Assembly (NCBI GenBank): GCA_048938895.1
Contig: JBHLLU010000040.1
Coordinates: 1-36,131, forward strand
Direction of reading: 5' to 3'
DNA length: 36,131 bases
Source: Promethearchaeota archaeon
GTDB taxonomy: Archaea; Asgardarchaeota; Lokiarchaeia; Sigyniarchaeales; SOKP01
The notes under the pieces were generated by a model. It searched no databases and was not told where the DNA came from. It was given only the letters and a program-made list of their open reading frames with translations. Shown here one piece after another: positions 1 through 17,206 of this stretch. The stretch's first letter is position 1, and each line of letters begins with the position of its first letter. The translations under genes were made by a program, and so were the position numbers.

Positions 1-872
1 TAAGCATTTATCATCCTTGAAAAGTATTGGTCAATAAGAGTTCTTTTCATATTTATATCTCTAAAGAGGATACCATAGAGAGCATCGTTCAGCATCATAT
101 CAAGTCTTTCAAAAGCACCCATTACAGCAATTTCTGGCATACATAATCCTGAACAGTAGTTAGTTAGACGAATATACCTTCCTAATTCTTCACTAACTTC
201 ATCTAAAGCTTTTCTCATTAGTCTGAAATTTTCTTGTGTTGCATAAGTTCCTCCAAAACCCTCTGTAGTAGGACCATAAGGAACATAGTCCAGAAGACTT
301 TGAACAGTCGATCTTATTACGGCAATTACGTCAGCTCCTTGTCTTGAAGCAGCTTGAGCTTGTATGATGTCCTCGTAAATATTTCCTGTTGCTACGATTA
401 CGTAAATAAGAGGTCCTTTTTTGTCACCGTATTTTTCTAGAAGCTCATCTCTTTTTCTTCTGTTTTGAGAAATTAAATCTAACTTTTCTTTAGCAAGCGA
501 ATTAAGGATTGATTTTATCTCTGTAAAATTTTCTAAAGGAAGATTGGTTAAATCCAATTCCATTTTGGCAACCTTCTCAGCTATTTCTTGGGGAGAAAGT
601 TTTGTACTTAGAATAGCATTACCGATATAAATAGCAATTCCTCTTGTTAAACCTTTTTCTCTTTCGATATGATTAACGACGATATTAGGCAATGGTACTT
701 CAAATTCATCAATACCATCAATTCCCAGAAATCTGCATACTGTTCTTTCGATAGTTTTAGTTGTATGCTGATCAATAAATTCTTGAGTTTTCAACGCAAT
801 TTCTTTTGCAGTTTCCCTTGCTTTAGCTACTATCGAAAAGTCTAAGTTCAATTTACTTGAAATTTTCTTCAT
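1..872 (-). CDS. kamD: Lysine 5,6-aminomutase alpha subunit (5' part; runs off the window edge)
   Basis: Not in the ORF track. Manual translation from ATG at 872 gives MKKISSKLNLDFSIVAKARETAKEIALKTQEFIDQHTTKTIERTVCRFLGIDG...GPLIYVIVATGNIYEDIIQAQAASRQGADVIAVIRSTVQSLLDYVPYGPTTEGFGGTYATQENFRLMRKALDEVSEELGRYIRLTNYCSGLCMPEIA...NDALYGILFRDINMKRTLIDQ, which I recognise as KamD. It lies downstream of kamA/kamB. Confidence 0.95.
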   Translation of the reverse strand, partial: MKKISSKLNLDFSIVAKARETAKEIALKTQEFIDQHTTKTIERTVCRFLGIDGIDEFEVPLPNIVVNHIEREKGLTRGIAIYIGNAILSTKLSPQEIAEKVAKMELDLTNLPLENFTEIKSILNSLAKEKLDLISQNRRKRDELLEKYGDKKGPLIYVIVATGNIYEDIIQAQAASRQGADVIAVIRSTVQSLLDYVPYGPTTEGFGGTYATQENFRLMRKALDEVSEELGRYIRLTNYCSGLCMPEIAVMGAFERLDMMLNDALYGILFRDINMKRTLIDQYFSRMINA

Positions 873-914
873 ATAATTCACCAATTTTAATAAATATATA
901 AATATAAACTAAAT

Positions 915-1967
915 TTAATCATTAACTCCAAGATTATATACGGGGATGTTAAGTTCTTCTGCTAGTGCTCGTAAAAATTTATCTTTATCAAATTGATATT
1001 CGTATGGGGATGTTGGATTTATAGTTAGACCGATAAGCTTTATTGGGTTAAGAACTTTTAATATTCCACCCTTTTTTTGAAATTTTTTAAAGATATTCTT
1101 ACTAATAAACAATTTGGTACTATCTTCAACTAGAAACGTGATTCCTTTATATTTTTGAGAATATTTCATTAAATCTTCCAAAAATCTATCAGTAATAGCC
1201 CCTTTTATTACAACGTATTGAGAATTATCATCCAGACTTTTGATAATATCTTGAGCCGAATCTAAGGCGGTAGCTATTTCTAAATTGATTATTGAATGTG
1301 ATTTAGTAATAATACCAACTTTTGATTTTCTTATTATTTCATTACATAAATCTATAATTTCTTGATCATTTTCAGGTTCTAACCCTAATAGCTGAACAGT
1401 ATGGATCGTTAAATCAATTACTTCCTTCATACTTCTTGATACTGAAGCGCCAGTGGACACAATTGTAGCATCAGATATTAAAGGTGTAGCATAAGACCTT
1501 CTATCAAAAGCTCCATCAATTAAGATTAAATCACATCCTAAACTACTTAGTTCCGAGCAAATTTTCGCTAACTGGCTATTTATCGAAGGACCAGCTAATT
1601 CAATGTAGCCTTCAGTTTTTGCTTTCAATATCATAATTTCTCCTAATGGAGTGTTAAATCCTGTTTCTTTAATTAATTCAAACTTAATATTACTTTGTTC
1701 AAAACACTGCTTAGCAGTTGCTATAAGAGTTCCTTTAGTGATATAGATTCTAGGTTTAGGGAGCTCAGTAATAACATCATATTTTTCTCCATCTCTTCCT
1801 ATTGATGTAAGACCTAAAACGATTTGTTCTCCTATATTTCTTATAATATAATTTAAAGTAGTGGTTTTACTAACATTTTTGGCAAGTCCTATAATTGAGA
1901 TGATTTTATAATTCTCAAATTTTTTCAAATACTCAATCATGAAATCCATTTTCTCGCCAAAAACCAT
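915..1967 (-). CDS. kamB: KamB-like lysine 5,6-aminomutase accessory/reactivase subunit
   Basis: N-terminal ISIIGLAKNVSKTTTLN P-loop-like motif, TSIGRDGE, LIDGAFDR and C-terminal TINPTSP. Located between kamA and kamD as in bacterial kam operons. The true start may be a few codons downstream. Confidence 0.75.
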   Translation of the reverse strand: MVFGEKMDFMIEYLKKFENYKIISIIGLAKNVSKTTTLNYIIRNIGEQIVLGLTSIGRDGEKYDVITELPKPRIYITKGTLIATAKQCFEQSNIKFELIKETGFNTPLGEIMILKAKTEGYIELAGPSINSQLAKICSELSSLGCDLILIDGAFDRRSYATPLISDATIVSTGASVSRSMKEVIDLTIHTVQLLGLEPENDQEIIDLCNEIIRKSKVGIITKSHSIINLEIATALDSAQDIIKSLDDNSQYVVIKGAITDRFLEDLMKYSQKYKGITFLVEDSTKLFISKNIFKKFQKKGGILKVLNPIKLIGLTINPTSPYEYQFDKDKFLRALAEELNIPVYNLGVND

Positions 1968-2030
1968 GTCTATTCTTCAATAGTAATAGAAATAAATCTT
2001 AATTATTTAATATATAGATTATAATATAGA

Positions 2031-3794
2031 TCAGTTGTCTTTCAGAATTTTGGGTATGTTATCTTCTTTAAGTTTTTGGGATCTCGTTATATCTAACGGT
2101 GCTTCACATACCCAGCAAACATTTTCTAAATCAATTAATGCTTTTACACATTTTTCACAATATAAAGCATTACATCTACAAATATAACTCATACCCTTTA
2201 CTTGACCTTTACAAATAAGGCAAACTTTTTTTTCTTTATGGATTGTTACTTTTTCTTCAACAATTTGAGTTATTATTGTTCTGCGAATTCGTAACATACC
2301 CTCCAATTGTTCATCTAGCCCTGCAAATTCCATTCTTTTATCAATAGATGGAAAATCTCCGTTTATTTCTTCAATTTTCTCCCATTTATCCAATAAATTT
2401 GTTAAATATTCTTGTTCATGATTAATTTTCAAGATTAATTGTTTATATCCATATCTTTCTGCAATTTGTTGACTTTTAATCAAAAATCTACGAGTTCCCT
2501 TGAGGTCTAATGTGATCAATGAGATTTTTGCTTGTAAGAGACAAAGTTCTGCTAAAAAATAGAATGAATTATTAGATTCAGCAAGTGCTTCTAATTGATA
2601 TACGTACGGCTCTAGTTCATCTAAAACCCGAATTTCATTGGTCATACGTAATTCTGTGAGTAATAAATCGCATAATCCTAATAACGATTCAAATTTTATT
2701 CCTCCTCTATCCCCTTCTTCAATTATCCACTTATAAATCTCTTCTGCTTCTACTCTATTTCTAGCTCTCTTACTCGTTTTTAATATTGACGCTTTGCAGG
2801 AAAGATAGGCAATATGAATCCATTGATTATTTATTTGATCATCTAGCTGCTTTAATTGGAGTAAATATTGTTTTGCCAAATCCAAATTACCCATTTCAAC
2901 GGCTAAATCAATTGAAATGCCAAGAGCAGTAGAAATATCTGTTGGAATTCCCAATTTTTCTCGTATTGATAAACCTCGTTCCGTATATTCAAAAGCAAGT
3001 TCTAAATCACCTAAAAGCCTATAAATTTCTCCAATCTGACTTAATAACCCTCCGGTAAGAGTTTTATTATCAATTTCTTCAAAAAAAGCTAAACTTTGTT
3101 TTATGTAAACAAGGCTTTTATCAAAATCACCTTTTATTTTAAAAAACAATCCAAAATATATTAAACACCACGCAATATAATATATATTGTTCGTTTCTGT
3201 TGCTAATGCATAAGCTTGTTCCAGAAGTTCCAAACCACGATCCACTTGATTTTTAATTAGACCAATATGATAAACATAACTAAGATATGATTCAATTATT
3301 TCAAATTTAGTTCCAAATTTCTTACGTATAATTATACTTAGTTCTATAAACTTCAGTTGCTGATCTATGCTATATATATCCATAGATCTTTTAAGATCAA
3401 GTAGATATGCTTTTCGGAGCATATAGTCTTTTGAAGTTTTTTTTGTATAAGAATTTAATAGAGTTTCGGCTTTTTTAATTGATCCTGAAACTTTTTCTTG
3501 ATTTCCCCTATAAGAACGAGCCTTAGATATTGAAAGTAATGTATCAATGGTTAAGAGAATGTTATTCACGTTTAATGATTCTTTAAATGCTTTTTTGGCG
3601 AGCTCGTGAGCATCTTTATACAACCCTCGTTGAATTAATAGCTCACACTTGAGAAGGTAACATTTGACTAAATTTTCAGTTGTATTAACTGCTTTTTTTT
3701 CGAAATTATTCATTACCTTTAGAGCTTGCTGATACTTACTCTCAAACAGAAGTTTTTTAGCTAAAATTAAGTCTTCAGTATTTGAATTAAACAA
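2031..3794 (-). CDS. Tetratricopeptide-repeat protein with C-terminal C4C4 RING-like zinc finger
   Basis: TPR-like helical repeats (GLFFKIKGDFDKSLVYIKQSLAFFEEI; GEIYRLLGDLELAFEYTERGLSIREKLG). C-terminal CLIC-x10-CRC-x4-CEKC-x10-CWVC. Confidence 0.85.
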   Translation of the reverse strand: MFNSNTEDLILAKKLLFESKYQQALKVMNNFEKKAVNTTENLVKCYLLKCELLIQRGLYKDAHELAKKAFKESLNVNNILLTIDTLLSISKARSYRGNQEKVSGSIKKAETLLNSYTKKTSKDYMLRKAYLLDLKRSMDIYSIDQQLKFIELSIIIRKKFGTKFEIIESYLSYVYHIGLIKNQVDRGLELLEQAYALATETNNIYYIAWCLIYFGLFFKIKGDFDKSLVYIKQSLAFFEEIDNKTLTGGLLSQIGEIYRLLGDLELAFEYTERGLSIREKLGIPTDISTALGISIDLAVEMGNLDLAKQYLLQLKQLDDQINNQWIHIAYLSCKASILKTSKRARNRVEAEEIYKWIIEEGDRGGIKFESLLGLCDLLLTELRMTNEIRVLDELEPYVYQLEALAESNNSFYFLAELCLLQAKISLITLDLKGTRRFLIKSQQIAERYGYKQLILKINHEQEYLTNLLDKWEKIEEINGDFPSIDKRMEFAGLDEQLEGMLRIRRTIITQIVEEKVTIHKEKKVCLICKGQVKGMSYICRCNALYCEKCVKALIDLENVCWVCEAPLDITRSQKLKEDNIPKILKDN

Positions 3795-3897
3795 TTAAAA
3801 CCCTCTGGTTCATACAAATTCAATAACAATGGGAAATGACAAGTTATTATAAGGATTAAGACTAATTTAAGTATATTCACTAGATTAATAATTCTTT

Positions 3898-5136
3898 TTA
3901 CTTATGGTTTAGCTTTCTCCTCGACTTTCGAACTAGATCATTGGGTTCAATTGTCATCTTTTGGCCACTTAGCAAAGCACTTACCCCGATTTGTTTCTCA
4001 CATTCTTCACAATGGCAATTTGGTACGTAATCTTTTGGTTCTTCATAAGTGGTTATGACACCCTCAAAATTCCTTAATACCACTCTGGTATTGCCTTGAG
4101 AAATGGTGTAATCTGGCATTACAGGAATTTTTCCACCTCCTCCTGGAGCATCAACTACAAAAGTCGGAACACATAATCCCGAAGTATGTCCTCTCAATCC
4201 TTCAATTATTTCAATTCCTTGAGCGACACTAGTTCGAAAATGACCAAGCCCTAAAGAAAGATCACATTGATAAATATAATATGGTCGTACTCTAATCTTT
4301 ACCAAATCTTGTACCAATTTCTTCATTATATGAATACAATCATTTACTCCTCTTAATAGAACGGATTGGTTGCCAAGAGGTAAGCCTGCGTCTGCTAACA
4401 ATTCACATGCTTTTGTAGAGTCTTCTGTAATTTCATTCGAGTGGTTAAAATGAGTATTAAACCAGATTGGTTGATATTTTTTTAGCATTTTACATAACTC
4501 TGGAGTAATCCGAAACGGATTTGTGACTGGGGCTCTCGATCCAATACGTATTATTTCTACATGAGGTATTTCTTTTAATCTCCTTAAAATCTCTTCCAGT
4601 TTTTTATCAGAGATTAATAATGCATCCCCGCCAGATAGTAGAACATCCCTTATCGAGGGAGTATTTTTGATATATTCTATACAATCATCTATTTGGGATT
4701 TAGGTGGAGCCATGTCAGCGTGCCCTGCAAATCTCCTTCTTGTACAATGCCTACAATACATCGAACAAACCTCTGTAACCAAAAATAATACTCTGTCTGG
4801 ATAACGATGGGTTAACCCCTCAACAGGAGAATCAATATCCTCACTAAGCGGGTCTTCAAGTTCACCAGTGTATTTTTCTAGCTCATGAATGGTTGGAATA
4901 GCTTGTTTTCTAATAGGATCATAGGGATCATTGGGATCAATTAAGGAAAGATAGTAGGGAGTTATTGCCATTCTATATTCTCTAAGTATTCGTGGATCAT
5001 CTTCTTCCTCTGTAAGGGTAATAAAATTCTTAAGCTCTTCCAATGTAGAAATTCTATTTTTAACTTGCCAGCGCCAATCATTCCAATCCTCATCACTTAT
5101 GTTAGAAAATAATTCATTTCGCCTATTAACTTTCAT
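3898..5136 (-). CDS. kamA: L-lysine 2,3-aminomutase (radical SAM, PLP)
   Basis: Radical-SAM motif CSMYCRHCTRRR, THRYPDRVL, LLSGGD, PLP-lysine motif DAPGGGGKIP, C-terminal CHCEEC Zn site, and kam gene context. Confidence 0.96.
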   Translation of the reverse strand: MKVNRRNELFSNISDEDWNDWRWQVKNRISTLEELKNFITLTEEEDDPRILREYRMAITPYYLSLIDPNDPYDPIRKQAIPTIHELEKYTGELEDPLSEDIDSPVEGLTHRYPDRVLFLVTEVCSMYCRHCTRRRFAGHADMAPPKSQIDDCIEYIKNTPSIRDVLLSGGDALLISDKKLEEILRRLKEIPHVEIIRIGSRAPVTNPFRITPELCKMLKKYQPIWFNTHFNHSNEITEDSTKACELLADAGLPLGNQSVLLRGVNDCIHIMKKLVQDLVKIRVRPYYIYQCDLSLGLGHFRTSVAQGIEIIEGLRGHTSGLCVPTFVVDAPGGGGKIPVMPDYTISQGNTRVVLRNFEGVITTYEEPKDYVPNCHCEECEKQIGVSALLSGQKMTIEPNDLVRKSRRKLNHK

Positions 5137-5419
5137 TTTGAAGACCTATAATCTTTGATTTACAATCTTTATAAGTATTTTATATATGTTAAACTTTAAG
5201 GATATTTAGAGATTTGTGGGAGAAGTACCCCACATTCATAATGTTATAGTTAATAATTCTAAAAAGTTAAAAAATTGTACTAAGCATCAGATTTTTATAC
5301 ATTATGGACCTAGAGCATAGATTGCATATTTCTGCAAAAAGGATAATAACTATTAATATTTATATAGAATGCTGTAATTCTTTTTTATAATTCAATATAT
5401 AAATCAAGGGCAGAAATTC

Positions 5420-8400
5420 ATGAATAGATTGTTTAAAAGTAATAAATGTGCAGGTTTTGTTGTAATTTTTATACTCCTAATCTTTTTTAATATTTACAGT
5501 ACTGTATCATTTAACTGGAATAATAATGATATAAATGCTGATTATTTCAACAATACAAACTATCCAAAACTACATGAAGATAATTTGGAGGAATGGTTGT
5601 ACTTTAGAGAAATCTCTTTAAATCCTTCTACCCCTAAAGGGAATTATCAAATAAAGGTCATACTCAATACAACTAATTTCGATTATACAAAAACTAACTT
5701 AGACGGAAGTGATCTTAGATTTTATAGCACTAATGGAACATACTTAGATTACTGGATTGAATCATGGAATACTGTTGGTGATTCAATAATTTGGGTTAAA
5801 ATAATAGAACAAGGAACTTCTCATTTTTATATGTATTATGGAAATCCATATGCTTTATCAATGTCGGATGGAGAGAAAACATTTGAATTTTTTGATGATT
5901 TTGAAGGAACTAGCTTGAATTTAAGCAAGTGGAATGAGCAAAAAGTTACTCGAACTGGAACATTCACTGTTACTGTAGAGGATAGCTTAGTAAAAGTATT
6001 GATGAGTGGTTTTAATATATACATGGGTATAGGAACCATTATAGGATGGCATGATTTTTACACTACTGGAGGAACATATGGTAGCAAATCTCCTAATGGT
6101 ATTTGTCTTTCGACAGATGATACAATTACAAGAACCGAAGGTGGAACATCTCAGTCTTTTGCTGATGTAGGGGGTCCTGAATGGATTTGGTTATTACAAG
6201 ATATTTATTACTTAAATTCTACTGTAGTTCAATTTTTTGAAAACAATACACTTATTGCCACTCATGATGATACTGCTTCATTTCCCTCTTCAGAAACTAT
6301 CCCAATTAAATTTATGACCAGATGTTATGACTATCCTGCGGGGAGGCATTATATGAATAGTATTCGTTCTAATCAGAATTTAAACAAAGAGGGAACAGCT
6401 CTAAGAATGCTTACAAGACAAGATTGGGATGGAAATTATGATGATAATGCTTTAAGGGTTTGGGTTGATTGGGTATTTATTCATGAAATCCATGAAGATG
6501 ATCCAATACCAAATATAGGTTCTGAGATATCTAATAAAATCCCACCTATAATCACCATTATTAGTCCAAATAATAATGATGTCTATGGCACATCAGCACC
6601 ATATTATCAAATATCAATTTTTGGAGCATCTATTAATGCAACCTGGTATACTCTAGATAATGGTGTGACAAATATCATTTTTACAGAATACTCGGGTTAT
6701 ATAGACCAAACAGAATGGAACAAATTTGGTAATGGTACTATAAATCTCAAATTTTATTCCAACAATACTTGGGGGAATGAAAGTTTTGCTGAAGTTTTAA
6801 TCAGAAAAGATATAATTAAACCGGTTATAACAATAAATTCGCCAATTCAAAATGAATTATATGGAAAAATATCTCCTTCCTTTGATATCTCAGTTATTGA
6901 ACCCAATATAGATTTAATATGGTACACCTTAGATAACGGTATTACTAATATTTCAATCACCGAATTAACCGGGAAAATTGATCAAGCAGAATGGAAAAAA
7001 CACGGAAATGGAACAGTTACAATTAGGTTTTATGTGAAAGATAGAGGAGGAAATGAACAATTTGATGAAGTTACTGTAAGAAAAGAAACAAGTGATCCAA
7101 TTATCATCATCCACAAACCAAAGGAAAATGAACTTTTCAGTACTCTTGCACCTACATATAATATTTCTGTAGTGGAACCAGATTTGGATTCAATGTGGTA
7201 CACACTGGATAATGGTATTACCAATATTACCTTTTCATTATTAATGGATGATATTAGTCAAACAGAATGGAATAAAAAAGGAAATGGAACCGTAATTGTT
7301 CGATTTTATGCTAATGACTCATTAGGGAATGTTGGTTTTTCTGAAGTTATGATAAGAAAAGATATACTCGCACCTCAGATCAACATTGTCTTGCCAATTG
7401 AAAATACTATATTTGGATTTGATGCTCCAGCTTATTCAATAACTGTTATAGAAAATAATCTTCATTCAATGTGGTACACACTCGATAATGGTTTAACAAA
7501 TATTCCATTTAGTAGTTTTACTGGTACAGTCGATGAAACAGAATGGAATAAAAGAAGTGGCGGAACTGTCTCAATTAGATTTTATGCAAATGATACTTTA
7601 GGACATCTAAGCTATGAAGAAGCAATTATTGTAAAAGATATTATTGAACCACTAATAACAATTAACAGTCCGTCTGAAAATGAAATATTTGGTGCAACAG
7701 CTCCAACCTTTAGCCTTTCCATTGTGGAACCAAATTTAAAAAATTTAACATATTCAATTGATAATGGTGTAACTGTTCTAGAGTTTAGCGGTCTTACAGG
7801 TCAAATTGATCAAGCTGAATGGGATAAAATGGGAAATGGAACCGTGTCAATTAGGTTTTATGCTGAGGATGAGGCGGCTAATATAGGAGACTCTGCGGTT
7901 ACAGTAAGAAAAGATATTAGTTTACCTATAATTGACATAATTTCACCTGAAATGCATCAAATGTGCGGTATTAAAGCCCCAAACTTTGAACTTACAATTT
8001 TAGAACCAAACATAGATTTAATGTGGTATACACTTGACTACGGATTAACAAATGTTACATTTACTAGTTTTACAGGATTTATTAGTAAAGCGGAATGGGA
8101 TCTGAAAGGAAATGAATCAGTTATTATAAGATTCTACGTAAGAGATAAAGGGGGAAATGAAGTATTTGCTGAAGTTCTTGTAAGTAAAGACATTTACATA
8201 CCAATAGTTAATATCCTTGTTCCTGAATTAGGCGAGGAAATCATCGATTATCCTCCAATTTATAGTATATCTGTAGATGAAGCAAACTTAATTCATTTGT
8301 GGTATACTTTAGATGGCGGTATAACAAACACTACATTTACAGAATTAATCGGTATAATAGATGACGATACATGGAGTATAATTCCTGATGGACCAACTAC

Positions 8401-8575: not shown

Positions 8576-8593
8576 TTCTCCCCATTTTTTTTA
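8576..8593 (+). terminator. Probable archaeal oligo-T terminator after the surface protein gene
   Basis: TTCTCCCCATTTTTTTT follows the stop codon at 8575, in a short convergent intergenic gap. Confidence 0.45.
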
Positions 8594-8606
8594 AAATTTC
8601 AAAATC

Positions 8607-9644
8607 TTAGGCGTATTTATTTTTGAAAATTCCTCTTAGAACAGATGATTCTCTTAATAGATTTAATGCAATATTCGCATGATTATATGTATATCCGTTC
8701 CCGATTATCATAACCACATCCTTTCCAACACCTTCAGCCCCAAGTGCGGCTTTAGTGAAGCTAGTAGCCATAGAAAAAAAATATACAATACCACCATTTC
8801 GAACAGGAAGAATAGAGGATAATTCTGTATTAGAAATGCTAAGACAATTGATGGCAATATCAACTTCCTTATCATTATTAACTCCCAGAACCTTGTCTAA
8901 AACATCCATAGGATTTAAAACATCAGCTACTATTACTTCATGACAAAATTCAGTGTTTAGAAGAAATTCGGCTCTTTCCTCGTTTCTTGCTTGACCAATA
9001 ACCTTCCCTTTCTTACCAACTAACCCTTTGGCAACATAGGAACAAAGTAGTCCAGACTTTCCTGTAGCACCTAAAATTAAAACTGTATTTCCGGGTTTTA
9101 CCAAATTCTTGACTTGAGCTGGTGCTCCTGCTACGTCCAAAACTGCTAATGCTAATGTATCCTCCATATCTTCTGGGAGTTTAGCATAAATCCCACTTTC
9201 AAAAAGTATTGCCTTCCCCTCAATTTCTACTCGATCTATATTAGGGTTAATATTAATTATCTTATCGATTCTTAATGGAGTTAAAGAAAGAGAGACAAGC
9301 GTTGCAATTTTATCTCCTTCCTTAATACTAATTTTGTTTTTCAATAATTCCCCAATTTTCTCAACTTTTCCAATAAGCATCCCTCCAGAACCAGTTACCG
9401 GATTTTGCATTTTACCTTTTTCTTCAACAATTTCTATTATTCTTGTTTTAACCTTTTCAATATCTCCCTTAGCTTCTTCTTTAAGTTGGGTGAAACTAGC
9501 TGAATCTATATTTAAGTAATCCACATCTATTAATATTTCATTGTCAAAGATTTCCATATCGTTAGAAATTTTAGTGGCTGGTTGGGGAAGTGCCCCTTTT
9601 GGTTTAATAACCCTATGAGTACCATATTTATTCCCTTTTTTCAT
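8607..9644 (-). CDS. kdd: L-erythro-3,5-diaminohexanoate dehydrogenase
   Basis: YGTHRVIKPKGALPQPA, NIDSASFTQ, KMQNPVTGSGGML, ATLVSLSLTPL, LDVAGAPAQ, FFSMATSFTKAALGAEGVG and IGNGY are characteristic of Kdd. Confidence 0.94.
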   Translation of the reverse strand: MKKGNKYGTHRVIKPKGALPQPATKISNDMEIFDNEILIDVDYLNIDSASFTQLKEEAKGDIEKVKTRIIEIVEEKGKMQNPVTGSGGMLIGKVEKIGELLKNKISIKEGDKIATLVSLSLTPLRIDKIININPNIDRVEIEGKAILFESGIYAKLPEDMEDTLALAVLDVAGAPAQVKNLVKPGNTVLILGATGKSGLLCSYVAKGLVGKKGKVIGQARNEERAEFLLNTEFCHEVIVADVLNPMDVLDKVLGVNNDKEVDIAINCLSISNTELSSILPVRNGGIVYFFSMATSFTKAALGAEGVGKDVVMIIGNGYTYNHANIALNLLRESSVLRGIFKNKYA

Positions 9645-9665
9645 TATAATCCCAAACCTTAATTT

Positions 9666-10373
9666 TTATAACTTTATACCTAAATATAATCCCCTTTGCC
9701 TCATCAATCCATCTTTCAAAAATTCTGCATCAAATCCAGATTCTTTCATGATTTCTAAAAATTTCTCGGTTTCAAAAAGCCCTAATTCATGTCTTTCGAC
9801 AAAGTATTTAATATCTTTATCATGCTCTGCAATTAAATAATGCATATCCATTACTGAAAGATTTTCTTCTAACTTCGTTGTATTTAATCTTGCGATTTTA
9901 ATGTCTTTAGTATCATAAGTTGTCATTCCTGGTGTTCCGACCCAATATGTTGATTTTGTAAACCATGGTTCGATGATTACAATTCCACCAGATTTTAGAT
10001 GATTTGCAAAGTTTCGTATAGTTTTTTCTAAATTATCATAAGTTTTTACATGACCAATCGCACTAAAAAGGCAGGTAATAATGTCAAATTTATCCTCTAA
10101 ATTGAAATTTATCATGTCTGCTTGAATAAAACTAATCTCGTCTAACTTGGATTTAGCAATCTTGAGCATCTCATCATTTAAATCAATGCCAGTACAGATA
10201 AACCTATCTTTTAAATATTCGAGATGACTTCCTGTTCCACAACCTACATCAAGAAGCTTGGGATTATCTGAAATTTTACATTTCTTGATAAGTTTTTTGA
10301 TTTTACATACTTCTTTTTTATAATCTTTCCATGAATAAATCAAATCATAATATTGAGCTAATTCTTTATACAT
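9666..10373 (-). CDS. Class I SAM-dependent methyltransferase, TylM1/DesVI-like (amino-sugar N-methyltransferase fold)
   Basis: LLDVGCGTG motif I, FDIITCLFSAIGH, IIEPWF, MHYLIA...ERHELGLF and RGLYLG. Start set at ATG 10373 (MYKELAQYYDLIY) because the ORF-track extension to 10448 overlaps kce. Confidence 0.85.
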   Translation of the reverse strand: MYKELAQYYDLIYSWKDYKKEVCKIKKLIKKCKISDNPKLLDVGCGTGSHLEYLKDRFICTGIDLNDEMLKIAKSKLDEISFIQADMINFNLEDKFDIITCLFSAIGHVKTYDNLEKTIRNFANHLKSGGIVIIEPWFTKSTYWVGTPGMTTYDTKDIKIARLNTTKLEENLSVMDMHYLIAEHDKDIKYFVERHELGLFETEKFLEIMKESGFDAEFLKDGLMRQRGLYLGIKL

Positions 10374-10407
10374 AATAATCTCAAAGAATTTTTTTTTATT
10401 TTTATAA

Positions 10408-11229
10408 TTATATAGTAAGGATTTTACGTGCTTCCTTTGGTGTTGCAATTTCTCTCCCCAATTCTTCTGCTATTTTAACCACTTTTTCAACTAATTCTCC
10501 ATTTGACTTTGCCAAAACACCTTTAGAAAGATACACATTATCCTCAAATCCAACTCTGGCATGTCCTCCTCTTTCAATAGATATTGACACCATTGGAAAT
10601 TCATATCTGCCAATTCCAGTAACGGTATAGGTAGATCCTTCTGGTATGCTTTCTATTAGAAAGTTTAAATTTCGAGGAGAACCATTCATACCTCCAACCA
10701 CGCCAAGAACAAAATTGAAATGCATTGGATCTTTAATATAACCCTTATCGTGTAATCGTAATACCATATCAACCATACCCTTATCAAAGCATTCTAATTC
10801 ATATTTTATTCCCAAACGATTCATTTCTTCAGCAAAGTAAATAATAGAATTTTCACTATTCACAAAAATATCATCACCACCAAAATTCATAGTCCCACAA
10901 TCTAAAGTGGCTATTTCAGGAGGAGGATCCAAGTATATTGGCTGTAATCTTTCCTCATTACTCATTCCCAAAGCACCACCTGTGGAAGGTAAAATAATAA
11001 TGTCTGGGCATCTTTCTATAATTTCTTCAATGCAAGCTTTAAATCTTTCTTTACTTTGTGTAGGGGTCCCATTATCTTCTCTAACATGTAAATGAATGAT
11101 ACTGGCACCAGCATTATAAGCATATTCAGCTTCTCTTCCAATTTCCTTAACAGTGTAAGGAATGTTAGGATTATTCTCTTTTGTTACCTCTGCTCCACAT
11201 ATTGCACCGGTTATTATTAATTTCTCCAT
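10408..11229 (-). CDS. kce: 3-keto-5-aminohexanoate cleavage enzyme (DUF849/BKACE)
   Basis: LIITGAICGAE, GASIIHLHVR (HxH metal ligands), STGG, TLDCGTMNFG and GGHARVGFEDN. Located upstream of kdd. Confidence 0.93.
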   Translation of the reverse strand: MEKLIITGAICGAEVTKENNPNIPYTVKEIGREAEYAYNAGASIIHLHVREDNGTPTQSKERFKACIEEIIERCPDIIILPSTGGALGMSNEERLQPIYLDPPPEIATLDCGTMNFGGDDIFVNSENSIIYFAEEMNRLGIKYELECFDKGMVDMVLRLHDKGYIKDPMHFNFVLGVVGGMNGSPRNLNFLIESIPEGSTYTVTGIGRYEFPMVSISIERGGHARVGFEDNVYLSKGVLAKSNGELVEKVVKIAEELGREIATPKEARKILTI

Positions 11230-11393
11230 ATCAATATCAATATTTCTATTGTTTTAAATATAATCTCTTCGATATTAGCATTACACCTAAATTAAACCAA
11301 ATATTCTAAAGTTAACACGCTTGTAAGATAGACTTTAAATATAAAAGTTACATTTAAAATATTCAATTCAAGTTTAACGATACATGAAAGAAA

Positions 11394-12575
11394 ATGAAAG
11401 AAGATAATCAAATTAAAGAAATATCTCAGGAGGATGAAGAGGGTGCCCAAAGATTTTTCCAAATAGATTTATTAAAGTCTTTTATGATCCTCCTTGTTAT
11501 ACTTGATCATTCAATTGCTTTTACAGGTTTATATGGCCCAGGATTTGAATTATGGCAAAGAATTGCAATACCCATGTTTCTTGTAATAATGGGATTTAAT
11601 ATGGGTAATTCTTTTTCAAAAGAAGGAGGAAAATCTTTAAGAGAACTTTATTCAAAGGATTATTTTAAGAAGAAATTTTGGCGATATATTTATCCTTATC
11701 TAATTTTATATAGTATTGGTACAATTTTTGGGTTTATATTATATGGTGCTGCCTTTCCTGAAACTCTAAATGAAAATTGGTTATTAGAATATATTATTTT
11801 TCAAAAGTCTCTTCTTGAAGGTCCAGGGAATTGGTTTATACCTGTTTTATTTCAATCTATATTTCTTATGCCCTTACTGTATAAATGCTTTTTAAAAGTA
11901 CCAAAAACATCTTTAACCTTATGCTTTATTATTGAGTTTCTTATGCATTTAATGATATTTTTTATTTTTGGAAAGATAACTAGTACTGGAGAATTAATAC
12001 GGTCATTAAATTTTCGCTATAATATTCTTTTATATCTTTCCGCAATAGGAATGGGAATGTGGTTTTCCAGGAATTATAATCTGTTCAATAAGAAGAATAT
12101 ATTTGTATGGATTTTATTTCCAATAAGTATAATATATATGATAGCCTGGGATTTCTATGATTTTCGCTTGGTTATAAATAGAGGAGATATCCTAACAGGA
12201 GATTATAATTTCTTAACATTTATCTATTCTGCATTTCTCTTTTTAGTTGTTATGAAATTGATATCGCAAAATCCAAAAACTAAAAAGTTAAAAATTTTCA
12301 AAATGATAAGTAGTGCAACTTTTCATATCTATTTAACTCAAGATATTTATTTTGTTATATCGTATATTTTCCATGACTCAATTTGGGTATATGGGGTATC
12401 ATTAATTAACATTCTAGGTATAAGTTCTAATGAGTTCTTGATAAATTTTGGTTTATTAACAACAAATTGGATAATATGTATTTTCTGTGGAATTTTTTGG
12501 TGGTACCTTGATCACAAACTGATTAAATATTATCAAATTAGAAAATTAAGAAAGATGAATCATTCAATTATATAA
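11394..12575 (+). CDS. Acyltransferase family 3 (OafA-like) polytopic membrane protein
   Basis: RFFQIDLLKSFMILLVILDH, AIPMFLVIMG, GNWFIP and SSATFHIYLTQ. About 10 hydrophobic segments. Confidence 0.8.
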   Translation: MKEDNQIKEISQEDEEGAQRFFQIDLLKSFMILLVILDHSIAFTGLYGPGFELWQRIAIPMFLVIMGFNMGNSFSKEGGKSLRELYSKDYFKKKFWRYIYPYLILYSIGTIFGFILYGAAFPETLNENWLLEYIIFQKSLLEGPGNWFIPVLFQSIFLMPLLYKCFLKVPKTSLTLCFIIEFLMHLMIFFIFGKITSTGELIRSLNFRYNILLYLSAIGMGMWFSRNYNLFNKKNIFVWILFPISIIYMIAWDFYDFRLVINRGDILTGDYNFLTFIYSAFLFLVVMKLISQNPKTKKLKIFKMISSATFHIYLTQDIYFVISYIFHDSIWVYGVSLINILGISSNEFLINFGLLTTNWIICIFCGIFWWYLDHKLIKYYQIRKLRKMNHSII

Positions 12576-13767
12576 TTCCCTCTTGATACATCTTATCAAC
12601 ATCTTCTTCATTATATCCTAAAGAATTTAGAATTTCTCTAGTGTGCTGACCCAAACAAGGGGGGGCTGTTCGAATCTCTCCAGGTGTATCGGAAAGCTTG
12701 ATGGGAATCCCAGTCACTTTAACTTTACCTGCCTTTAAATGATCCAGATCTTTTACCATTTTTCTATGGATAACTTGAGGATCAGAAAAGATATCTTTCA
12801 TATTGTATATAGGACCACGAGGTACTCCTGCTCTTTTCAAAGTATTTAACCAATGCGACGCATCTTTTGTTTTGATAATGTTTTCAATTATTCCAACTAT
12901 TTCTTCCCTATTTTCAACTCGTTTAGAATTTGTTGCGAATTTAGGATGATCCATAATTTCTTCTAATCCAACAGCTTTACAAAATTTTTGCCAAAGTTGA
13001 TCATTACCCACGGCTATATTAACATATGTATCCTTTGCTTTAAATGATTGATAAGGTACTATGGTTGGGTGACCTGAACCCAGTGGTTGTGGAATTTCAC
13101 CCGAAGCAAAATAGGCTCCTGCTCTATAAGTAAGCCATGCAACTTGACTATCAAATAACGAAACATCAATCATTTGACCTATTTCAGATTCTTTCCGGTT
13201 AAATAAGGCAATAATAATCCCAAAGGCGGCAAACATTCCTCCTGCTATATCAGCTACAGCAATCCCGACCTTAATTGGGGGACCATTTGGTTCTCCTGTC
13301 AAACTCATTAATCCCCCCATGCCTTGTAACACTTGATCAAATCCAGGTAACAACCGATATGGACCATCTTGCCCAAAGCCCGAGATACTTGCATAAATTA
13401 TTTTAGGATTTAACTCTTTTACCTGTTTATAACCGAAACCTAACTTTTCCATAGTACCAGGTCTAAAATTTTCTACAAGTACATCTGATTGCTCTATCAA
13501 TTTCTTGAAAATCTCTTTAGATTTTACATTTTTCAAATTTAGAGTTAGACTCTTTTTGTTTCGATTGACACTCAGAAAATAAGCACTCTCTCCTTCTATA
13601 AAGGGAGGTCCCCAAGATCTGGAGTCATCTCCTCTTCCAGGCATTTCCAATTTTATGACTTCTGCACCCATATCTGCCAACATCATTGTACAGTAAGGTC
13701 CAGCGAGAGCTCTTGTTAAATCCAAAACTCTAATACCTTCTAGTGGACGAACCATAAATTGATTCAC
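12568..13767 (-). CDS. Family III (CaiB/BaiF/Frc) CoA-transferase
   Basis: PLEGIRVLDLTRALAGP, NRNKKS, ENFRPG, SISGFGQDGP, GFDQVLQ (catalytic Asp) and PPCLGQHT. Overlaps kat by 1 nt. Confidence 0.93.
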   Translation of the reverse strand: MNQFMVRPLEGIRVLDLTRALAGPYCTMMLADMGAEVIKLEMPGRGDDSRSWGPPFIEGESAYFLSVNRNKKSLTLNLKNVKSKEIFKKLIEQSDVLVENFRPGTMEKLGFGYKQVKELNPKIIYASISGFGQDGPYRLLPGFDQVLQGMGGLMSLTGEPNGPPIKVGIAVADIAGGMFAAFGIIIALFNRKESEIGQMIDVSLFDSQVAWLTYRAGAYFASGEIPQPLGSGHPTIVPYQSFKAKDTYVNIAVGNDQLWQKFCKAVGLEEIMDHPKFATNSKRVENREEIVGIIENIIKTKDASHWLNTLKRAGVPRGPIYNMKDIFSDPQVIHRKMVKDLDHLKAGKVKVTGIPIKLSDTPGEIRTAPPCLGQHTREILNSLGYNEEDVDKMYQEGII

Positions 13768-15011
13768 TACATTAATTTTTTAGTTTCATTTAGGGATTCA
13801 CTAATCATATCCGCAGCATAATCTAGATCTTCAGGCGTATGCCTATAACATATATACCCATGATGAAATGGTTGTAAGAACACTTTCCGTCTAATCAATT
13901 GTCTATAAAATTCCTCACGTAATTTTTTATAGAGATTTTTAGGATCACGTTCAAATGTAATGTATGGCATCCAAGGTTCTCCTGTAAAAACGCACGGAAC
14001 CTTGCTTTCTTCTATTAAATCTTTAACTTTATTTGCAAAAATTGTTCCTTTTTTGTTAATATCTTCTAATACATTTTCACGTTCCATTATCTCCAATGTT
14101 TTAAGAGCTGCAACCTGAGCAAGACTATTAGGAAAAAATGTTGAACTAAGAAAAACATGTTCAACTAGTTCATCCATATATTCTTTCTTACCTGTAAGTA
14201 CTCCAATAGGATATCCATTTGCTAAAGCTTTTCCAAATGCAGCTAAATCAGGTATAACCCCCAATTTCTTTTGAGCTCCTCCAAGATCTAAACGAAAACC
14301 AGTACGAATCTCGTCATATATCAGCAAAGAACCATAATCGTTTGCTAATCCACGGACTCCTTCTAAAAATCCAGGCTTAGGCATCTCTACTTGATTACCA
14401 CCGGGGTGATTGATAGGAGTCAAAATTATTGCAGCAACATCCTTCCCATATTGATTCATAAGATGACTGATATGATCTAGGTTGTTATATTCAAATTCAA
14501 TTACATCTTCATATAATTTTTCTGGTATCCCCCCTTTCTGTTCAACGCACCAATCGTGCCAACCATGATATCCACATCTTAGTATTTTAATCCTGTTTGT
14601 ATAACTCCGTGCTACTCGAATAGCAGAAGTTGTAGCATCCGATCCCATTTTAACGAAAACCATTTTTTCAGCACATGGGATTAATTCGTTTAATTTTTTT
14701 GCTAATTGATTTTGAACTGGTTGAGTTAGTGACATACAGAAGCCTTTCTCTTTAATTTGTTTTATAACTTCATTATCAATTTCTTCTTCTCTGTGACCAA
14801 TAATTATAGGTCCATATGCACAAAGCATATCTATATACTCATTTCCATCAACATCAATAACCTTACCACCCTTAGCAGCTTCAAAGAATATTGGATATTC
14901 TCCTTCTACAAAATTATATGGTCGTCTGATACCTAAAATCGCCCCAGGTATTAACCCTAATGCTTCTTCATAGAGTTTGAAAGTATTTTCAAGATTTAAT
15001 TTCTCATTCAT
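13767..15011 (-). CDS. kat: 3-aminobutyryl-CoA aminotransferase (class III PLP aminotransferase, Kat type)
   Basis: Class III motifs DEIRTGFR and FGKALANG. GIRRPYNFVEGEYPIFF, GYHGWHDWCVE.KGGIP, VFLSSTFFPNS, PWMPYITF and QP.HHGYICYRHT match my recollection of Cloacimonas Kat. Co-oriented upstream of kce/kdd. Confidence 0.85.
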   Translation of the reverse strand: MNEKLNLENTFKLYEEALGLIPGAILGIRRPYNFVEGEYPIFFEAAKGGKVIDVDGNEYIDMLCAYGPIIIGHREEEIDNEVIKQIKEKGFCMSLTQPVQNQLAKKLNELIPCAEKMVFVKMGSDATTSAIRVARSYTNRIKILRCGYHGWHDWCVEQKGGIPEKLYEDVIEFEYNNLDHISHLMNQYGKDVAAIILTPINHPGGNQVEMPKPGFLEGVRGLANDYGSLLIYDEIRTGFRLDLGGAQKKLGVIPDLAAFGKALANGYPIGVLTGKKEYMDELVEHVFLSSTFFPNSLAQVAALKTLEIMERENVLEDINKKGTIFANKVKDLIEESKVPCVFTGEPWMPYITFERDPKNLYKKLREEFYRQLIRRKVFLQPFHHGYICYRHTPEDLDYAADMISESLNETKKLM

Positions 15012-15226
15012 ATTTCTTCCTCAAATTGAGAATAATATAGATCATATAATTATTGAAGATTTTTAAAAGGAAACATCTCACAAATCAGTGTTTATATTTC
15101 ACAAAATTTATTTGATTTTTGCTTTCTTTAGACAAACTGTTCCAGTTTTGAGATTATATTTAATAATAAGAGCATTTTAGTTATCAAATTATCTTAGATC
15201 TTTCGAATAAGAAAAATAAATGGGTG

Positions 15227-17018: not shown

Positions 17019-17206
17019 TTTTGGTTCACTTGATATTTCTATATTTATTCTTAATAACAAGATGATAATTAAATTTATGGTTTTGATGAATTTTGAAAAA
17101 ATCTCTTGAGAAATTGATAATTACTTCGTGCAAAGAAACTCTTAAAGATTTAAATAAGTTCAAGGAAAAATAATATCATTGATAAAATCAAAATTTATTT
17201 GGTGAA

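What the first reader, a model, noticed from the sequence alone, without database searches (positions are those of the whole stretch)
1..15011. Near-complete bacterial-type lysine fermentation pathway in a probable Asgard archaeon, using the rare Kat (transaminase) branch instead of Kal
Seen: kat, a CoA-transferase, kce, kdd, kamA, kamB and kamD are all on the minus strand in roughly bacterial order, and there is no 3-aminobutyryl-CoA ammonia-lyase (kal) among them. Established: KamA, KamDE, Kdd and Kce convert lysine to 3-aminobutyryl-CoA plus acetoacetate. Most bacteria then deaminate with Kal to crotonyl-CoA, whereas Cloacimonas acidaminovorans transaminates with Kat to acetoacetyl-CoA. Inference: this archaeon oxidises lysine to acetyl-CoA/acetate without the butyrate branch, which would suit an H2-releasing or syntrophic amino-acid degrader. 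The pathway was probably acquired horizontally.
Basis: partly seen in the sequence, partly recalled or inferred. Interest (0 to 1): 0.85.

Follow-up and report, generated by a model that had tools for sequence, protein, structure and literature searches.

The report
Kat-type lysine fermentation cluster, Asgard archaeon
A Lokiarchaeia-type Asgard archaeon carries a bacterial-style gene cluster for fermenting lysine in which a transaminase (Kat) stands where the usual ammonia-lyase (Kal) would be, and close relatives carry one or the other at the same spot.

Summary
The window is a whole contig of a 4.65 Mb, 31% GC Asgard genome assembled from a metagenome. On its minus strand lie kat-like, a family III CoA-transferase, kce, a methyltransferase, kdd, kamA, a TPR gene, kamB and the 5' half of kamD. 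The rest of kamD and kamE lie on contig C109, which overlaps the window's end by 77 exact bases.

No kal was found in the genome (98.7% complete). The aminotransferase is not HemL. It is 29% identical to true HemL and 63-65% identical to Cloacimonadota and Bacteroidota proteins. It keeps 12 of 12 clade signature residues and branches inside the bacterial Kat clade.

Across 41 Asgard genomes with kce, 33 have this gene, 7 have kal, 1 has neither and none has both. The two genes occupy the same slot in an otherwise syntenic cluster and have swapped at least 4 times.

The cluster was found only in two families of one order, which fits horizontal acquisition. "Rare" does not hold for Asgards either. 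Enzyme activity is untested. A 2020 reconstruction of strain MK-D1 probably already drew lysine fermentation.

The parts
13767..15011 (-). kat-like gene: class III (HemL-like) aminotransferase, predicted 3-aminobutyryl-CoA:2-oxoglutarate aminotransferase
   Evidence: Pfam Aminotran_3, 175 bits. HemL models fall below their cut-offs. It is 29% identical to true HemL and 63-65% to Cloacimonadota and Bacteroidota homologues. It keeps 12 of 12 signature columns, and D233 and K261 are invariant. It sits inside the Kat clade with 100/99 support. It occupies the slot that kal fills in relatives.
12568..13767 (-). family III (CaiB/BaiF) CoA-transferase of unknown specificity; candidate acetoacetate-activating enzyme (inferred)
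   Evidence: PF02515, 466.6 bits. No NCBIfam equivalog is reached; the best scores 386 bits against a cut-off of 750. The closest solved structures are SUGCT (378 bits) and YfdE (330 bits). It lies between kat and kce only in G000, G004, G013 and G002 among 22 Asgard loci. Homologues are mostly 394-395 aa, so the true start may lie a few codons inside this ORF.
10408..11229 (-). [quoted passage not shown]
   Evidence: NF052387, 428.8 bits, cut-off 382; Pfam BKACE, 343.6 bits.
9666..10448 (-). SAM-dependent methyltransferase embedded between kce and kdd; role unknown
   Evidence: Methyltransf_25/11. It overlaps kce by 41 bases. A homologue lies at the same place in 12 of 21 relatives' loci.
8607..9644 (-). 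kdd, L-erythro-3,5-diaminohexanoate dehydrogenase
   Evidence: NF052381, 276.2 bits, cut-off 200.
3898..5136 (-). kamA, lysine 2,3-aminomutase (radical SAM)
   Evidence: TIGR03820, 607.4 bits, cut-off 525.4; Pfam LAM_C and Radical_SAM.
2031..3794 (-). TPR-repeat protein between kamA and kamB; role unknown
   Evidence: TPR_12 and TPR_MalT. No NCBIfam match. A homologue at this place was seen only in G005, at 39% identity.
915..1967 (-). kamB, lysine 5,6-aminomutase reactivase subunit
   Evidence: NF052386, 413.6 bits, cut-off 210.
3..884 (-). [quoted passage not shown]
   Evidence: NF052384 positions 1-284, 482.8 bits. C109:1-753 covers positions 260-510, 489.6 bits. The contigs share a 77-base exact overlap. 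kamE is at C109:785-1576, 392.1 bits, cut-off 280.
21682..22653 (-). 3-hydroxyacyl-CoA dehydrogenase; possible downstream step from acetoacetyl-CoA to 3-hydroxybutyryl-CoA (inferred)
   Evidence: 3HCDH_N, 152.7 bits. NF004783 scores 217.8 bits, below its cut-off of 347.
22740..23576 (+). second 3-hydroxyacyl-CoA dehydrogenase, divergent from the first
   Evidence: 3HCDH_N 121.9 bits and 3HCDH 64.3 bits.

Best explanation
The cluster encodes the Kat variant of anaerobic lysine fermentation, in a Lokiarchaeia-type Asgard archaeon.

Steps assigned from family matches:
- KamA converts lysine to beta-lysine.
- KamDE, which needs B12, converts beta-lysine to 3,5-diaminohexanoate. KamB is the reactivase subunit.
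- Kdd oxidises and deaminates that to 3-keto-5-aminohexanoate.
- Kce cleaves it with acetyl-CoA into acetoacetate and 3-aminobutyryl-CoA.

Step inferred from orthology and gene replacement: the HemL-like aminotransferase moves the amino group of 3-aminobutyryl-CoA onto 2-oxoglutarate. That gives acetoacetyl-CoA and glutamate. One of four glutamate dehydrogenase homologues regenerates 2-oxoglutarate.

Steps inferred from gene content only:
- A CoA-transferase activates acetoacetate. This could be the adjacent family III enzyme or an AtoAD-like pair elsewhere in the genome.
- Thiolases split acetoacetyl-CoA into acetyl-CoA.
- Depending on hydrogen pressure, the two reducing equivalents go either to H2 or formate (3 acetate + 2 NH3 + 2 H2 per lysine) or into reducing acetoacetyl-CoA to butyrate.

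The cluster came from bacteria into one Asgard order. Since then kat and kal have replaced each other repeatedly at one slot.
For: Family scores over curated cut-offs for KamA, KamB, Kdd, Kce and KamE, and two concordant halves of KamD.

No Kal in the genome with two models.

The aminotransferase belongs to the Kat clade:
- The nearest 50%-cluster representative, P0121, is 59% identical and carries a JGI name '3-aminobutanoyl-CoA transaminase'.
- It is 64.7% identical to Bacteroidota locus L023 and 64.0% and 62.7% to two Cloacimonadota loci. Those three are 65-68% identical to one another. Perret et al. report about 65% between the two characterised Kat groups (PMC3149608, section read).
- In the careful tree, three true HemL rows form the outgroup (100/100). 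The Kat clade of 45 rows has 100/99 support. The 17 Asgard rows are one clade (100/99), sister to Elusimicrobiota (99/97), inside a clade with Cloacimonadota and Bacteroidota (100/98).

Context in bacteria: 16 of 37 bacterial loci at 52% identity or more carry kce, kdd or kam genes. None of 43 loci at 46% or less does.

Co-occurrence in Asgards:
- Among 41 relatives including G000, Kat occurs in 24, Kce over cut-off in 26 and Kal in 2. The 2 with Kal are exactly the Kce genomes without Kat.
- In the phylum sample of 151 genomes, Kce occurs in 20, Kat in 14 and Kal in 5. One genome has neither and none has both.
- The flanks and gene order are the same around kat and around kal.

No HemB/ALAD was found, so a HemL would have no pathway to serve.

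Downstream genes are present.
Against: - No enzyme assay and no expression data exist for this cluster.
- The characterised sequences themselves (CLOAM0809, DIG1_60031) were not in hand. Only proteins of the same phyla were compared.
- A Thermodesulfobacteriota/Syntrophales subclade of the same Kat clade has no lysine genes nearby. Perret et al. also doubted Kat function for the NaphS2 homologue. Clade membership alone therefore does not fix the substrate.
- The reactivase ATPase KamC is missing. The best genome match is a true MutS.
- There is no route to make B12 from ALA. KamDE activity would depend on imported corrinoid and on an unknown reactivation partner.
- The cluster is interrupted by two genes on the opposite strand.
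Confidence: 0.8

Rival explanations
1. The aminotransferase belongs to the Kat clade but acts on a different amine, such as another beta-aminoacyl-CoA or a free beta-amino acid. 3-aminobutyryl-CoA would then be handled some other way.
For: The Thermodesulfobacteriota subclade lacks lysine genes nearby and departs from the lysine-context consensus at several of the 12 signature columns, for example 6 of 12, 4 of 12 and 7 of 12 rows agreeing. The clade therefore holds more than one function. Perret et al. say the same of the NaphS2 homologue.
Against: The Asgard rows keep the lysine-context residue in nearly all signature columns: 17 of 17 rows in 8 columns, and the window protein in 12 of 12. 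The gene sits next to kce in every Asgard locus examined and is replaced by kal at the same slot. No genome has both.
Confidence: 0.1
2. The cluster is a decaying or conditionally inactive remnant in this genus. KamC is missing and B12 cannot be made, so the 5,6-aminomutase step fails.
For: No KamC over cut-off. The only match (205 bits, cut-off 300) is a genuine MutS scoring 941 bits. No ALAD was found. Two unrelated genes are inserted on the opposite strand.
Against: All pathway reading frames are intact. They are 62-90% identical across genus relatives in conserved order, which points to purifying selection. KamC is absent from the cluster in all family-f1 loci examined, so its absence is a lineage trait and not a recent loss. 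The figure legend for MK-D1 predicts B12 exchange with partners (PMC7015854).
Confidence: 0.08
3. The aminotransferase is the organism's glutamate-1-semialdehyde aminomutase (HemL).
For: The best curated family and solved-structure matches are HemL.
Against: Scores are far below the HemL cut-offs: 271 bits against 527. It is 29% identical to true HemL proteins, which form a separate clade with 100/100 support. No ALAD/HemB is present in the genome.
Confidence: 0.01
4. kamA serves synthesis of a beta-lysine osmolyte, as AblA does in methanogens, and not catabolism.
For: KamA scores over the cut-off of the model named lys_2_3_AblA.
Against: There is no adjacent beta-lysine acetyltransferase. kamA sits in a conserved cluster with kamDE, kdd, kce and kat or kal, which are catabolic steps.
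Confidence: 0.02
5. The contig is bacterial contamination or a chimera in the assembled genome.
For: Genome contamination is estimated at 7.49%. Pathway proteins are 60-66% identical to bacterial ones.
Against: The same cluster with the same flanks occurs in many relatives, including single-contig genomes G006 and G032. The contig also carries two Ras-family GTPases and an archaea-only hypothetical protein next to kat. Its GC content is 31.5% against 31.1% for the genome. Logan contigs of run X1 cover 11553-14792 and 94-3927 without a difference, although that run may be the source sample.
Confidence: 0.01

Closest known systems
Variant lysine fermentation pathway with Kat (3-aminobutyryl-CoA aminotransferase, EC 2.6.1.111) of 'Candidatus Cloacamonas acidaminovorans' and a digester Bacteroidetes genome (Perret et al. 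2011, PMC3149608; sections 5, 8 and 9 read)
   Same: A HemL-like class III aminotransferase stands at the kal locus, kal is absent and tetrapyrrole synthesis is absent. The gene order kat-kce-kdd-kamA-kamB-kamD-kamE matches the Bacteroidota locus L023. Identity to proteins of those two phyla is 63-65%.
   Different: The host is an archaeon. The cluster holds no atoA, atoD or thiolase, and L023 has all three. A family III CoA-transferase follows kat. A methyltransferase lies between kce and kdd. KamC is missing. Unlike what that paper reports for Cloacamonas, 3-hydroxybutyryl-CoA dehydrogenase and crotonase homologues are present.
Canonical Kal-type lysine fermentation (Fusobacterium nucleatum, Clostridium sticklandii; as summarised in PMC3149608, section 5)
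   Same: Steps from lysine to 3-aminobutyryl-CoA plus acetoacetate use the same enzyme families.
   Different: Kal deaminates to crotonyl-CoA. Here no Kal exists in the genome. Seven Asgard relatives do carry the Kal form, at the same slot.
Metabolic reconstruction of 'Candidatus Prometheoarchaeum syntrophicum' MK-D1 (Imachi et al. 2020, PMC7015854; passages and figure legends read, figure and supplements not seen)
   Same: It is an Asgard archaeon that degrades amino acids syntrophically. The Fig. 2a legend lists acetoacetate, an amino-butyryl-CoA, butyryl-CoA and B12 exchange. That suggests lysine fermentation was already drawn.
   Different: The word lysine does not occur in the held text, and neither Kat nor Kal is named. 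Which enzyme was assigned to the amino-butyryl-CoA step may be in supplements I could not read.
Glutamate-1-semialdehyde 2,1-aminomutase (HemL)
   Same: Same fold class and the same PLP-binding Lys and Asp. It is the best match among solved structures.
   Different: 29% identity, a separate clade, scores below the curated cut-offs, and no pathway for its product.

Membership tests
Kat, 3-aminobutyryl-CoA aminotransferase | Class III PLP aminotransferase with catalytic Lys and PLP-binding Asp | tested here: met
   PF00202, 175 bits. K261 and D233 are invariant in all 65 aligned rows.
Kat, 3-aminobutyryl-CoA aminotransferase | Branches with the Kat proteins of Cloacimonadota and Bacteroidota and apart from HemL | tested here: met
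   Careful tree of 65 rows: Kat clade 100/99, and Asgard rows within a Cloacimonadota+Bacteroidota+Elusimicrobiota clade at 100/98. The characterised proteins themselves were not among the rows.
Kat, 3-aminobutyryl-CoA aminotransferase | About 60-65% identity to characterised Kat groups (figure from PMC3149608) | tested here: inconclusive
   62.7-64.7% identity to proteins of the same two phyla. CLOAM0809 and DIG1_60031 could not be fetched.
Kat, 3-aminobutyryl-CoA aminotransferase | Sits at the kal position of a lysine fermentation cluster in a genome without kal | tested here: met
   Kat and Kal exclude each other in the 41 kce-positive Asgard genomes.
Kat, 3-aminobutyryl-CoA aminotransferase | Transaminates 3-aminobutyryl-CoA with 2-oxoglutarate and acts only on CoA esters | not testable with these tools
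   This needs a recombinant enzyme assay.
Lysine fermentation pathway (KamA, KamDE, Kdd, Kce) | All four core activities encoded | tested here: met
   Scores over cut-off for KamA, Kdd, Kce and KamE. KamD is in two halves across a 77-base contig overlap.
Lysine fermentation pathway (KamA, KamDE, Kdd, Kce) | Reactivase pair KamB plus KamC for the 5,6-aminomutase | tested here: not met
   KamB is present. KamC is not: the best match scores 205 bits against a cut-off of 300 and is a true MutS. KamC is present in the clusters of G032 and G025 and in Bacteroidota L023.
Lysine fermentation pathway (KamA, KamDE, Kdd, Kce) | Acetoacetate CoA-transferase and acetoacetyl-CoA thiolase available | tested here: met
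   Family I CoA-transferase pairs lie on C54 and C161. There are 21 Thiolase_N matches. None is in the cluster, and their specificity is not known.
HemL (glutamate-1-semialdehyde aminomutase) | Reaches the curated HemL score and groups with HemL | tested here: not met
   271 bits against a cut-off of 527.3. True HemL proteins score 589-616 bits and form the outgroup.

The most novel reading that the evidence does not exclude
Within one Lokiarchaeia family, kat and kal behave as interchangeable cassettes at a single slot of an otherwise fixed lysine fermentation cluster. They have swapped at least four times among close relatives. The swap would tune how the amino group and the reducing equivalents of lysine are handled. 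With Kat, nitrogen is kept as glutamate and two reducing equivalents must go to a hydrogen-consuming partner or to butyrate. With Kal, ammonia is released and crotonyl-CoA forms directly. That would make it a genetic dial for partner dependence in the closest prokaryotic relatives of eukaryotes.
Probability: 0.25. Interest if true: 0.7.

Novelty: new member of a known kind. Interest (0 to 1): 0.45.

Why it matters
Asgard archaea are central to models in which eukaryotes arose from a syntrophic, amino-acid-degrading archaeon. Knowing which lysine route they use fixes the nitrogen and electron balance that such models assume. It also identifies a bacterial operon that entered one Asgard order.

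The in-place alternation of kat and kal gives independent comparative support for the function of Kat. So far that function has been shown biochemically only for two bacterial enzymes. The alternation also offers a natural experiment on what each variant is good for.

Beyond that, the finding is an extension of a known pathway to a new host and not a new mechanism.

Tried and rejected
SSU rRNA: no match to the archaeal model in G000, so no rRNA-based taxonomy was possible.

Expression: the look-up of sequencing runs listed no RNA holder. It listed 10 DNA rows from 5 studies, labelled sediment, marsh or soil metagenomes or simply metagenome. This says nothing about expression.

Read laying: Logan contigs of X1 match the window without differences over long pieces, but X1 may be the source sample. 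A joint from 11646 to 15101 in X2 and X3 has only 20 letters on its shorter side. I did not count it as evidence of a variant lacking CoA-transferase and kat.

KamC: the only genome match proved to be MutS.

Solved structures: there is none for Kat, only HemL-type entries. No structure prediction or complex prediction was run, because neither would settle substrate specificity.

Literature searches:
- Searches returned nothing.
- One search returned one unrelated paper.
- Searches returned no paper on Asgard lysine fermentation.
- One search matched only author names.
- (KamB/KamC) returned nothing.
My statement that a Kat-type pathway in Asgards is not described in print rests on these searches of the held library only.

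Rows dropped:
- One search dropped L054 and L057 as too short.
- One search dropped 21 further near-duplicate or long-branch rows out of 83 and added 5 rows (L118-L122).
- One search used only loci already fetched, so its bacterial sampling is biased towards Kat carriers. G036 and G038 had Kce only (26% of columns) and fell outside the Asgard group without support.

The 'Thorarchaeota' and 'Hodarchaeota' labels on some homologues were not taken as evidence of a wider range. Those rows branch among genus-g1 sequences, and the phylum sample found the gene in two families only.

Full report
What is there. The window is the whole of contig C60 of a 4.65 Mb, 174-contig genome (completeness 98.74%, contamination 7.49%). 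Its GC content is 31.5%, against 31.1% for the genome. Curated family models place the following genes on the minus strand:
- kamD N-terminal half, 3-884
- kamB, 915-1967
- a TPR protein, 2031-3794
- kamA, 3898-5136
- kdd, 8607-9644
- a SAM methyltransferase, 9666-10448
- kce, 10408-11229
- a family III CoA-transferase, 12568-13767
- a HemL-like class III aminotransferase, 13767-15011

KamA, KamB, Kdd and Kce all score above their curated cut-offs. Two genes on the plus strand interrupt the row: a DUF2341 surface protein (5420-8575) and an Acyl_transf_3 protein (11394-12575).

The reverse-complemented end of the window is identical over 77 bases to the start of contig C109. C109 carries the remaining half of kamD and then kamE, which scores 392 bits against a cut-off of 280. 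The core pathway from lysine to 3-aminobutyryl-CoA plus acetoacetate is therefore fully encoded across that junction.

Whose DNA it is. Several lines say Asgard archaeon:
- The 120 best homologues of the aminotransferase are 73-90% identical. Every one that names an organism names an archaeon: Promethearchaeota, Lokiarchaeota, Thorarchaeota, Hodarchaeota or simply archaeon. Two others are labelled only marine sediment metagenome.
- The contig carries two Ras-family small GTPases, scoring 159 and 166 bits.
- The gene next to kat belongs to a family of hypothetical proteins seen almost only in archaea.
- The same cluster with the same flanking genes occurs in relatives of the same genus, family and order, among them the single-contig genomes G006 and G032.

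Contamination or a chimera is therefore very unlikely. No rRNA gene was found in the assembly.

Is the aminotransferase Kat or HemL? Its best curated matches are HemL models, but at 271-273 bits against cut-offs of 398 and 527. The same is true of the Bacteroidota homologue L023.
- Sequence neighbours. A search of 1.84 billion cluster representatives gave one close relative, P0121, at 59% identity. The next full-length hits were at 45% or less. P0121 carries a JGI name '3-aminobutanoyl-CoA transaminase'.
- Bacterial relatives. A scan of species-representative genomes returned homologues at 52-65% identity, a few at 43-46%, and the rest at 39% or below. The closest are from Bacteroidota (ADurb.Bin139), Elusimicrobiota and Cloacimonadota.
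- Identities. The window protein is 64.7% identical to the Bacteroidota protein and 64.0% and 62.7% to the two Cloacimonadota proteins. Those three are 65-68% identical to each other. Perret et al. characterised Kat from those two phyla and report about 65% identity between the two groups (PMC3149608, sections 5 and 9 read).
- True HemL. I fetched three proteins that score 589-616 bits on the HemL model. The window protein is 29% identical to them.
- Tree. In a 65-row IQ-TREE analysis (LG+G4, ultrafast bootstrap / SH-aLRT), the HemL rows form the outgroup (100/100). A Kat clade of 45 rows has 100/99 support. The 17 Asgard rows are one clade (100/99). They are sister to Elusimicrobiota (99/97), inside a clade with Cloacimonadota and Bacteroidota (100/98). 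An 83-row quick tree agrees.
- Signature columns. Twelve alignment columns separate lysine-context bacterial Kat rows from all other HemL-like rows. The window protein has the Kat residue in all twelve. The PLP lysine and aspartate are invariant.
- No use for a HemL. The genome has no HemB/ALAD, so a HemL would have no pathway to feed. Perret et al. used the same argument for Cloacamonas.

Gene context.
- In bacteria, 16 of 37 loci at 52% identity or more have kce, kdd or kam genes within the fetched flanks. None of 43 loci at 46% or less does.
- Bacteroidota locus L023 reads atoD-kat-kce-kdd-kamA-kamB-kamC-kamD-kamE-atoA-thiolase. That is the same order as the window, apart from the ato, thiolase and kamC genes.
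- A Thermodesulfobacteriota/Syntrophales subclade has no such neighbours and departs at several signature columns. Clade membership alone therefore does not prove the substrate.

The kat/kal alternation. This is the strongest comparative evidence.
- In 41 genomes of the window's order, G000 included, the Kat orthologue (67% identity or more) is in 24. Kce over cut-off is in 26. Kal over cut-off is in 2, and those 2 are exactly the Kce genomes without Kat.
- In an even sample of 151 genomes of the phylum, Kce is in 20, Kat in 14 and Kal in 5. One genome, G167 (85% complete, 580 contigs), has neither. None has both.
- Removing the overlap between the two samples leaves 41 Kce genomes: 33 with Kat, 7 with Kal and 1 with neither.
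- All lie in two families of one order. None of the 25 other families sampled (0 of 124 genomes) had Kce, Kat or Kal at these thresholds.
- In the fetched loci the neighbourhood is the same whichever gene is present. The pattern is orf539-[kat or kal]-kce-(methyltransferase)-kdd-kamA-kamB-kamD-kamE.
- On a tree of Kce+Kdd+KamA, Kat-type and Kal-type clusters are interleaved within family f1. For example, G146 (Kal) is sister to G127 (Kat) at 99/93. Parsimony needs 5 changes, and well-supported branches force at least 4.
- This is the same replacement logic by which Kat was first discovered, now seen repeatedly among close relatives.

Downstream steps and the butyrate question. The genome holds:
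- four strong glutamate dehydrogenase homologues
- 21 thiolase-domain matches
- two family I CoA-transferase pairs
- 24 crotonase-family matches
- about 15 acyl-CoA dehydrogenases
- three EtfAB pairs, each beside an acyl-CoA dehydrogenase

Two 3-hydroxyacyl-CoA dehydrogenase genes lie on the window itself.

By stoichiometry (my inference), the Kat route with full oxidation gives 3 acetate + 2 NH3 + 2 H2 per lysine and needs a hydrogen sink. The same genes would also allow one acetoacetyl-CoA to be reduced to butyrate, which balances the electrons internally.

Open points in the cluster.
- The CoA-transferase next to kat is family III. Its nearest solved relatives are succinate-hydroxymethylglutarate CoA-transferase and YfdE. 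It reaches no curated equivalog. It lies in the cluster only in G000, G004, G013 and G002.
- The homologues of that CoA-transferase are 74-92% identical. Four carry Promethearchaeota names and four carry Deltaproteobacteria names. Its role as the acetoacetate-activating enzyme is a guess, at about 40%.
- KamC, the reactivase ATPase, is in the clusters of G032 and G025 and of Bacteroidota L023. It is missing from all family-f1 clusters examined and from G000 as a whole.
- With no ALAD, corrinoid for KamDE must be imported. This agrees with the B12 exchange predicted in the MK-D1 figure legend.

Origin. The evidence fits transfer of the whole operon from bacteria into an ancestor of this order:
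- The Asgard Kat clade is nested within bacterial rows.
- All pathway proteins are 60-66% identical to those of Bacteroidota, Spirochaetota and Bacillota loci.
- The gene order is shared with bacteria.
- The distribution is confined to one order.

The direction is inferred from this nesting. Bacterial sampling for the other genes was limited to Kat carriers.

Prior knowledge. No held paper names lysine fermentation, Kat or Kal in Asgard archaea. However, the legend of Fig. 2a of Imachi et al. 2020 lists acetoacetate, an amino-butyryl-CoA and butyryl-CoA. Lysine fermentation was therefore probably already drawn for MK-D1. I could not see the figure or the supplements.

I rate this as a new member of a known kind. 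It is a solid, well-supported extension of the Kat pathway to Asgard archaea. The kat/kal cassette alternation is the part most worth following up.

Noticed in passing
window 9666-10448 (-): A SAM-dependent methyltransferase sits between kce and kdd and overlaps kce by 41 bases. A homologue lies at the same place in 12 of 21 relatives' loci, in both Kat-type and Kal-type clusters. No known step of lysine fermentation needs a methyltransferase.
   Followed up: partly
window 2031-3794 (-): A 587-aa TPR protein lies between kamA and kamB and has no curated family. Only G005 has a homologue there, at 39% identity. In the other family (G032, G025) the reactivase ATPase gene kamC lies between kamB and kamD instead.
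   Followed up: partly
G000 whole genome; C163:7316-8653: No KamC was found in the genome. The only match is a true MutS scoring 941 bits. How the 5,6-aminomutase is reactivated with KamB alone is unexplained.
   Followed up: yes
window 12568-13767 (-): Homologues of the family III CoA-transferase are 74-92% identical. Four carry Promethearchaeota names and four carry Deltaproteobacteria names, the latter at 75-76% identity. This hints at recent exchange between the domains.
   Followed up: partly
window 33846-34373 (+) and 34485-35024 (+): Two adjacent Ras-family small GTPases, 159 and 166 bits on Pfam Ras. From recall, expanded small GTPase families are typical of Asgard archaea.
   Followed up: no
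window 5420-8575 (+) and 11394-12575 (+): A 1051-aa DUF2341/Ig-like surface protein and an Acyl_transf_3 membrane acyltransferase are inserted on the opposite strand inside the cluster. G001 has the acyltransferase between kat and kce, with no CoA-transferase.
   Followed up: partly
L003 (G000:C109) 4351-5610, 6100-7011, 10543-11475: Just beyond kamE lie an ornithine aminotransferase (525 bits, cut-off 378), a carbamate kinase and an ornithine carbamoyltransferase. The region thus gathers several amino-acid catabolic genes. A beta-glucuronidase (597 bits) lies among them.
   Followed up: no
window 30061-31311 (-), 28590-29882 (+), 26330-27745 (-): Three further genes lie on the contig: a 4-aminobutyrate aminotransferase (TIGR00700, 548.6 bits, cut-off 506.65), an ArgE/DapE-family deacylase, and an acetate-CoA ligase (ADP-forming) alpha-like protein that scores below its cut-off.
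   Followed up: no
G000 whole genome: No ALAD/HemB was found, so tetrapyrroles including B12 are probably not made from ALA. The B12-dependent KamDE would then rely on imported corrinoid.
   Followed up: partly
L033-L046, L055, L059, L062 (bacterial loci): A Thermodesulfobacteriota/Syntrophales subclade of the Kat clade has no lysine genes within 10 kb and departs from the lysine-context residues at several signature columns. It may act on another acyl-CoA amine.
   Followed up: partly
window 11646-15101: Contigs of runs X2 and X3 show a joint that skips 3454 bases, covering part of the acyltransferase, the CoA-transferase and kat, with 16 other letters between. The shorter side is only 20 letters, so it may come from another organism.
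   Followed up: no
window 15441-17060 (-): A 539-aa protein of an archaea-only hypothetical family flanks kat or kal in 14 of the 17 family-f1 loci examined, at 60-88% identity. Its function is unknown and it may belong to the cluster.
   Followed up: partly
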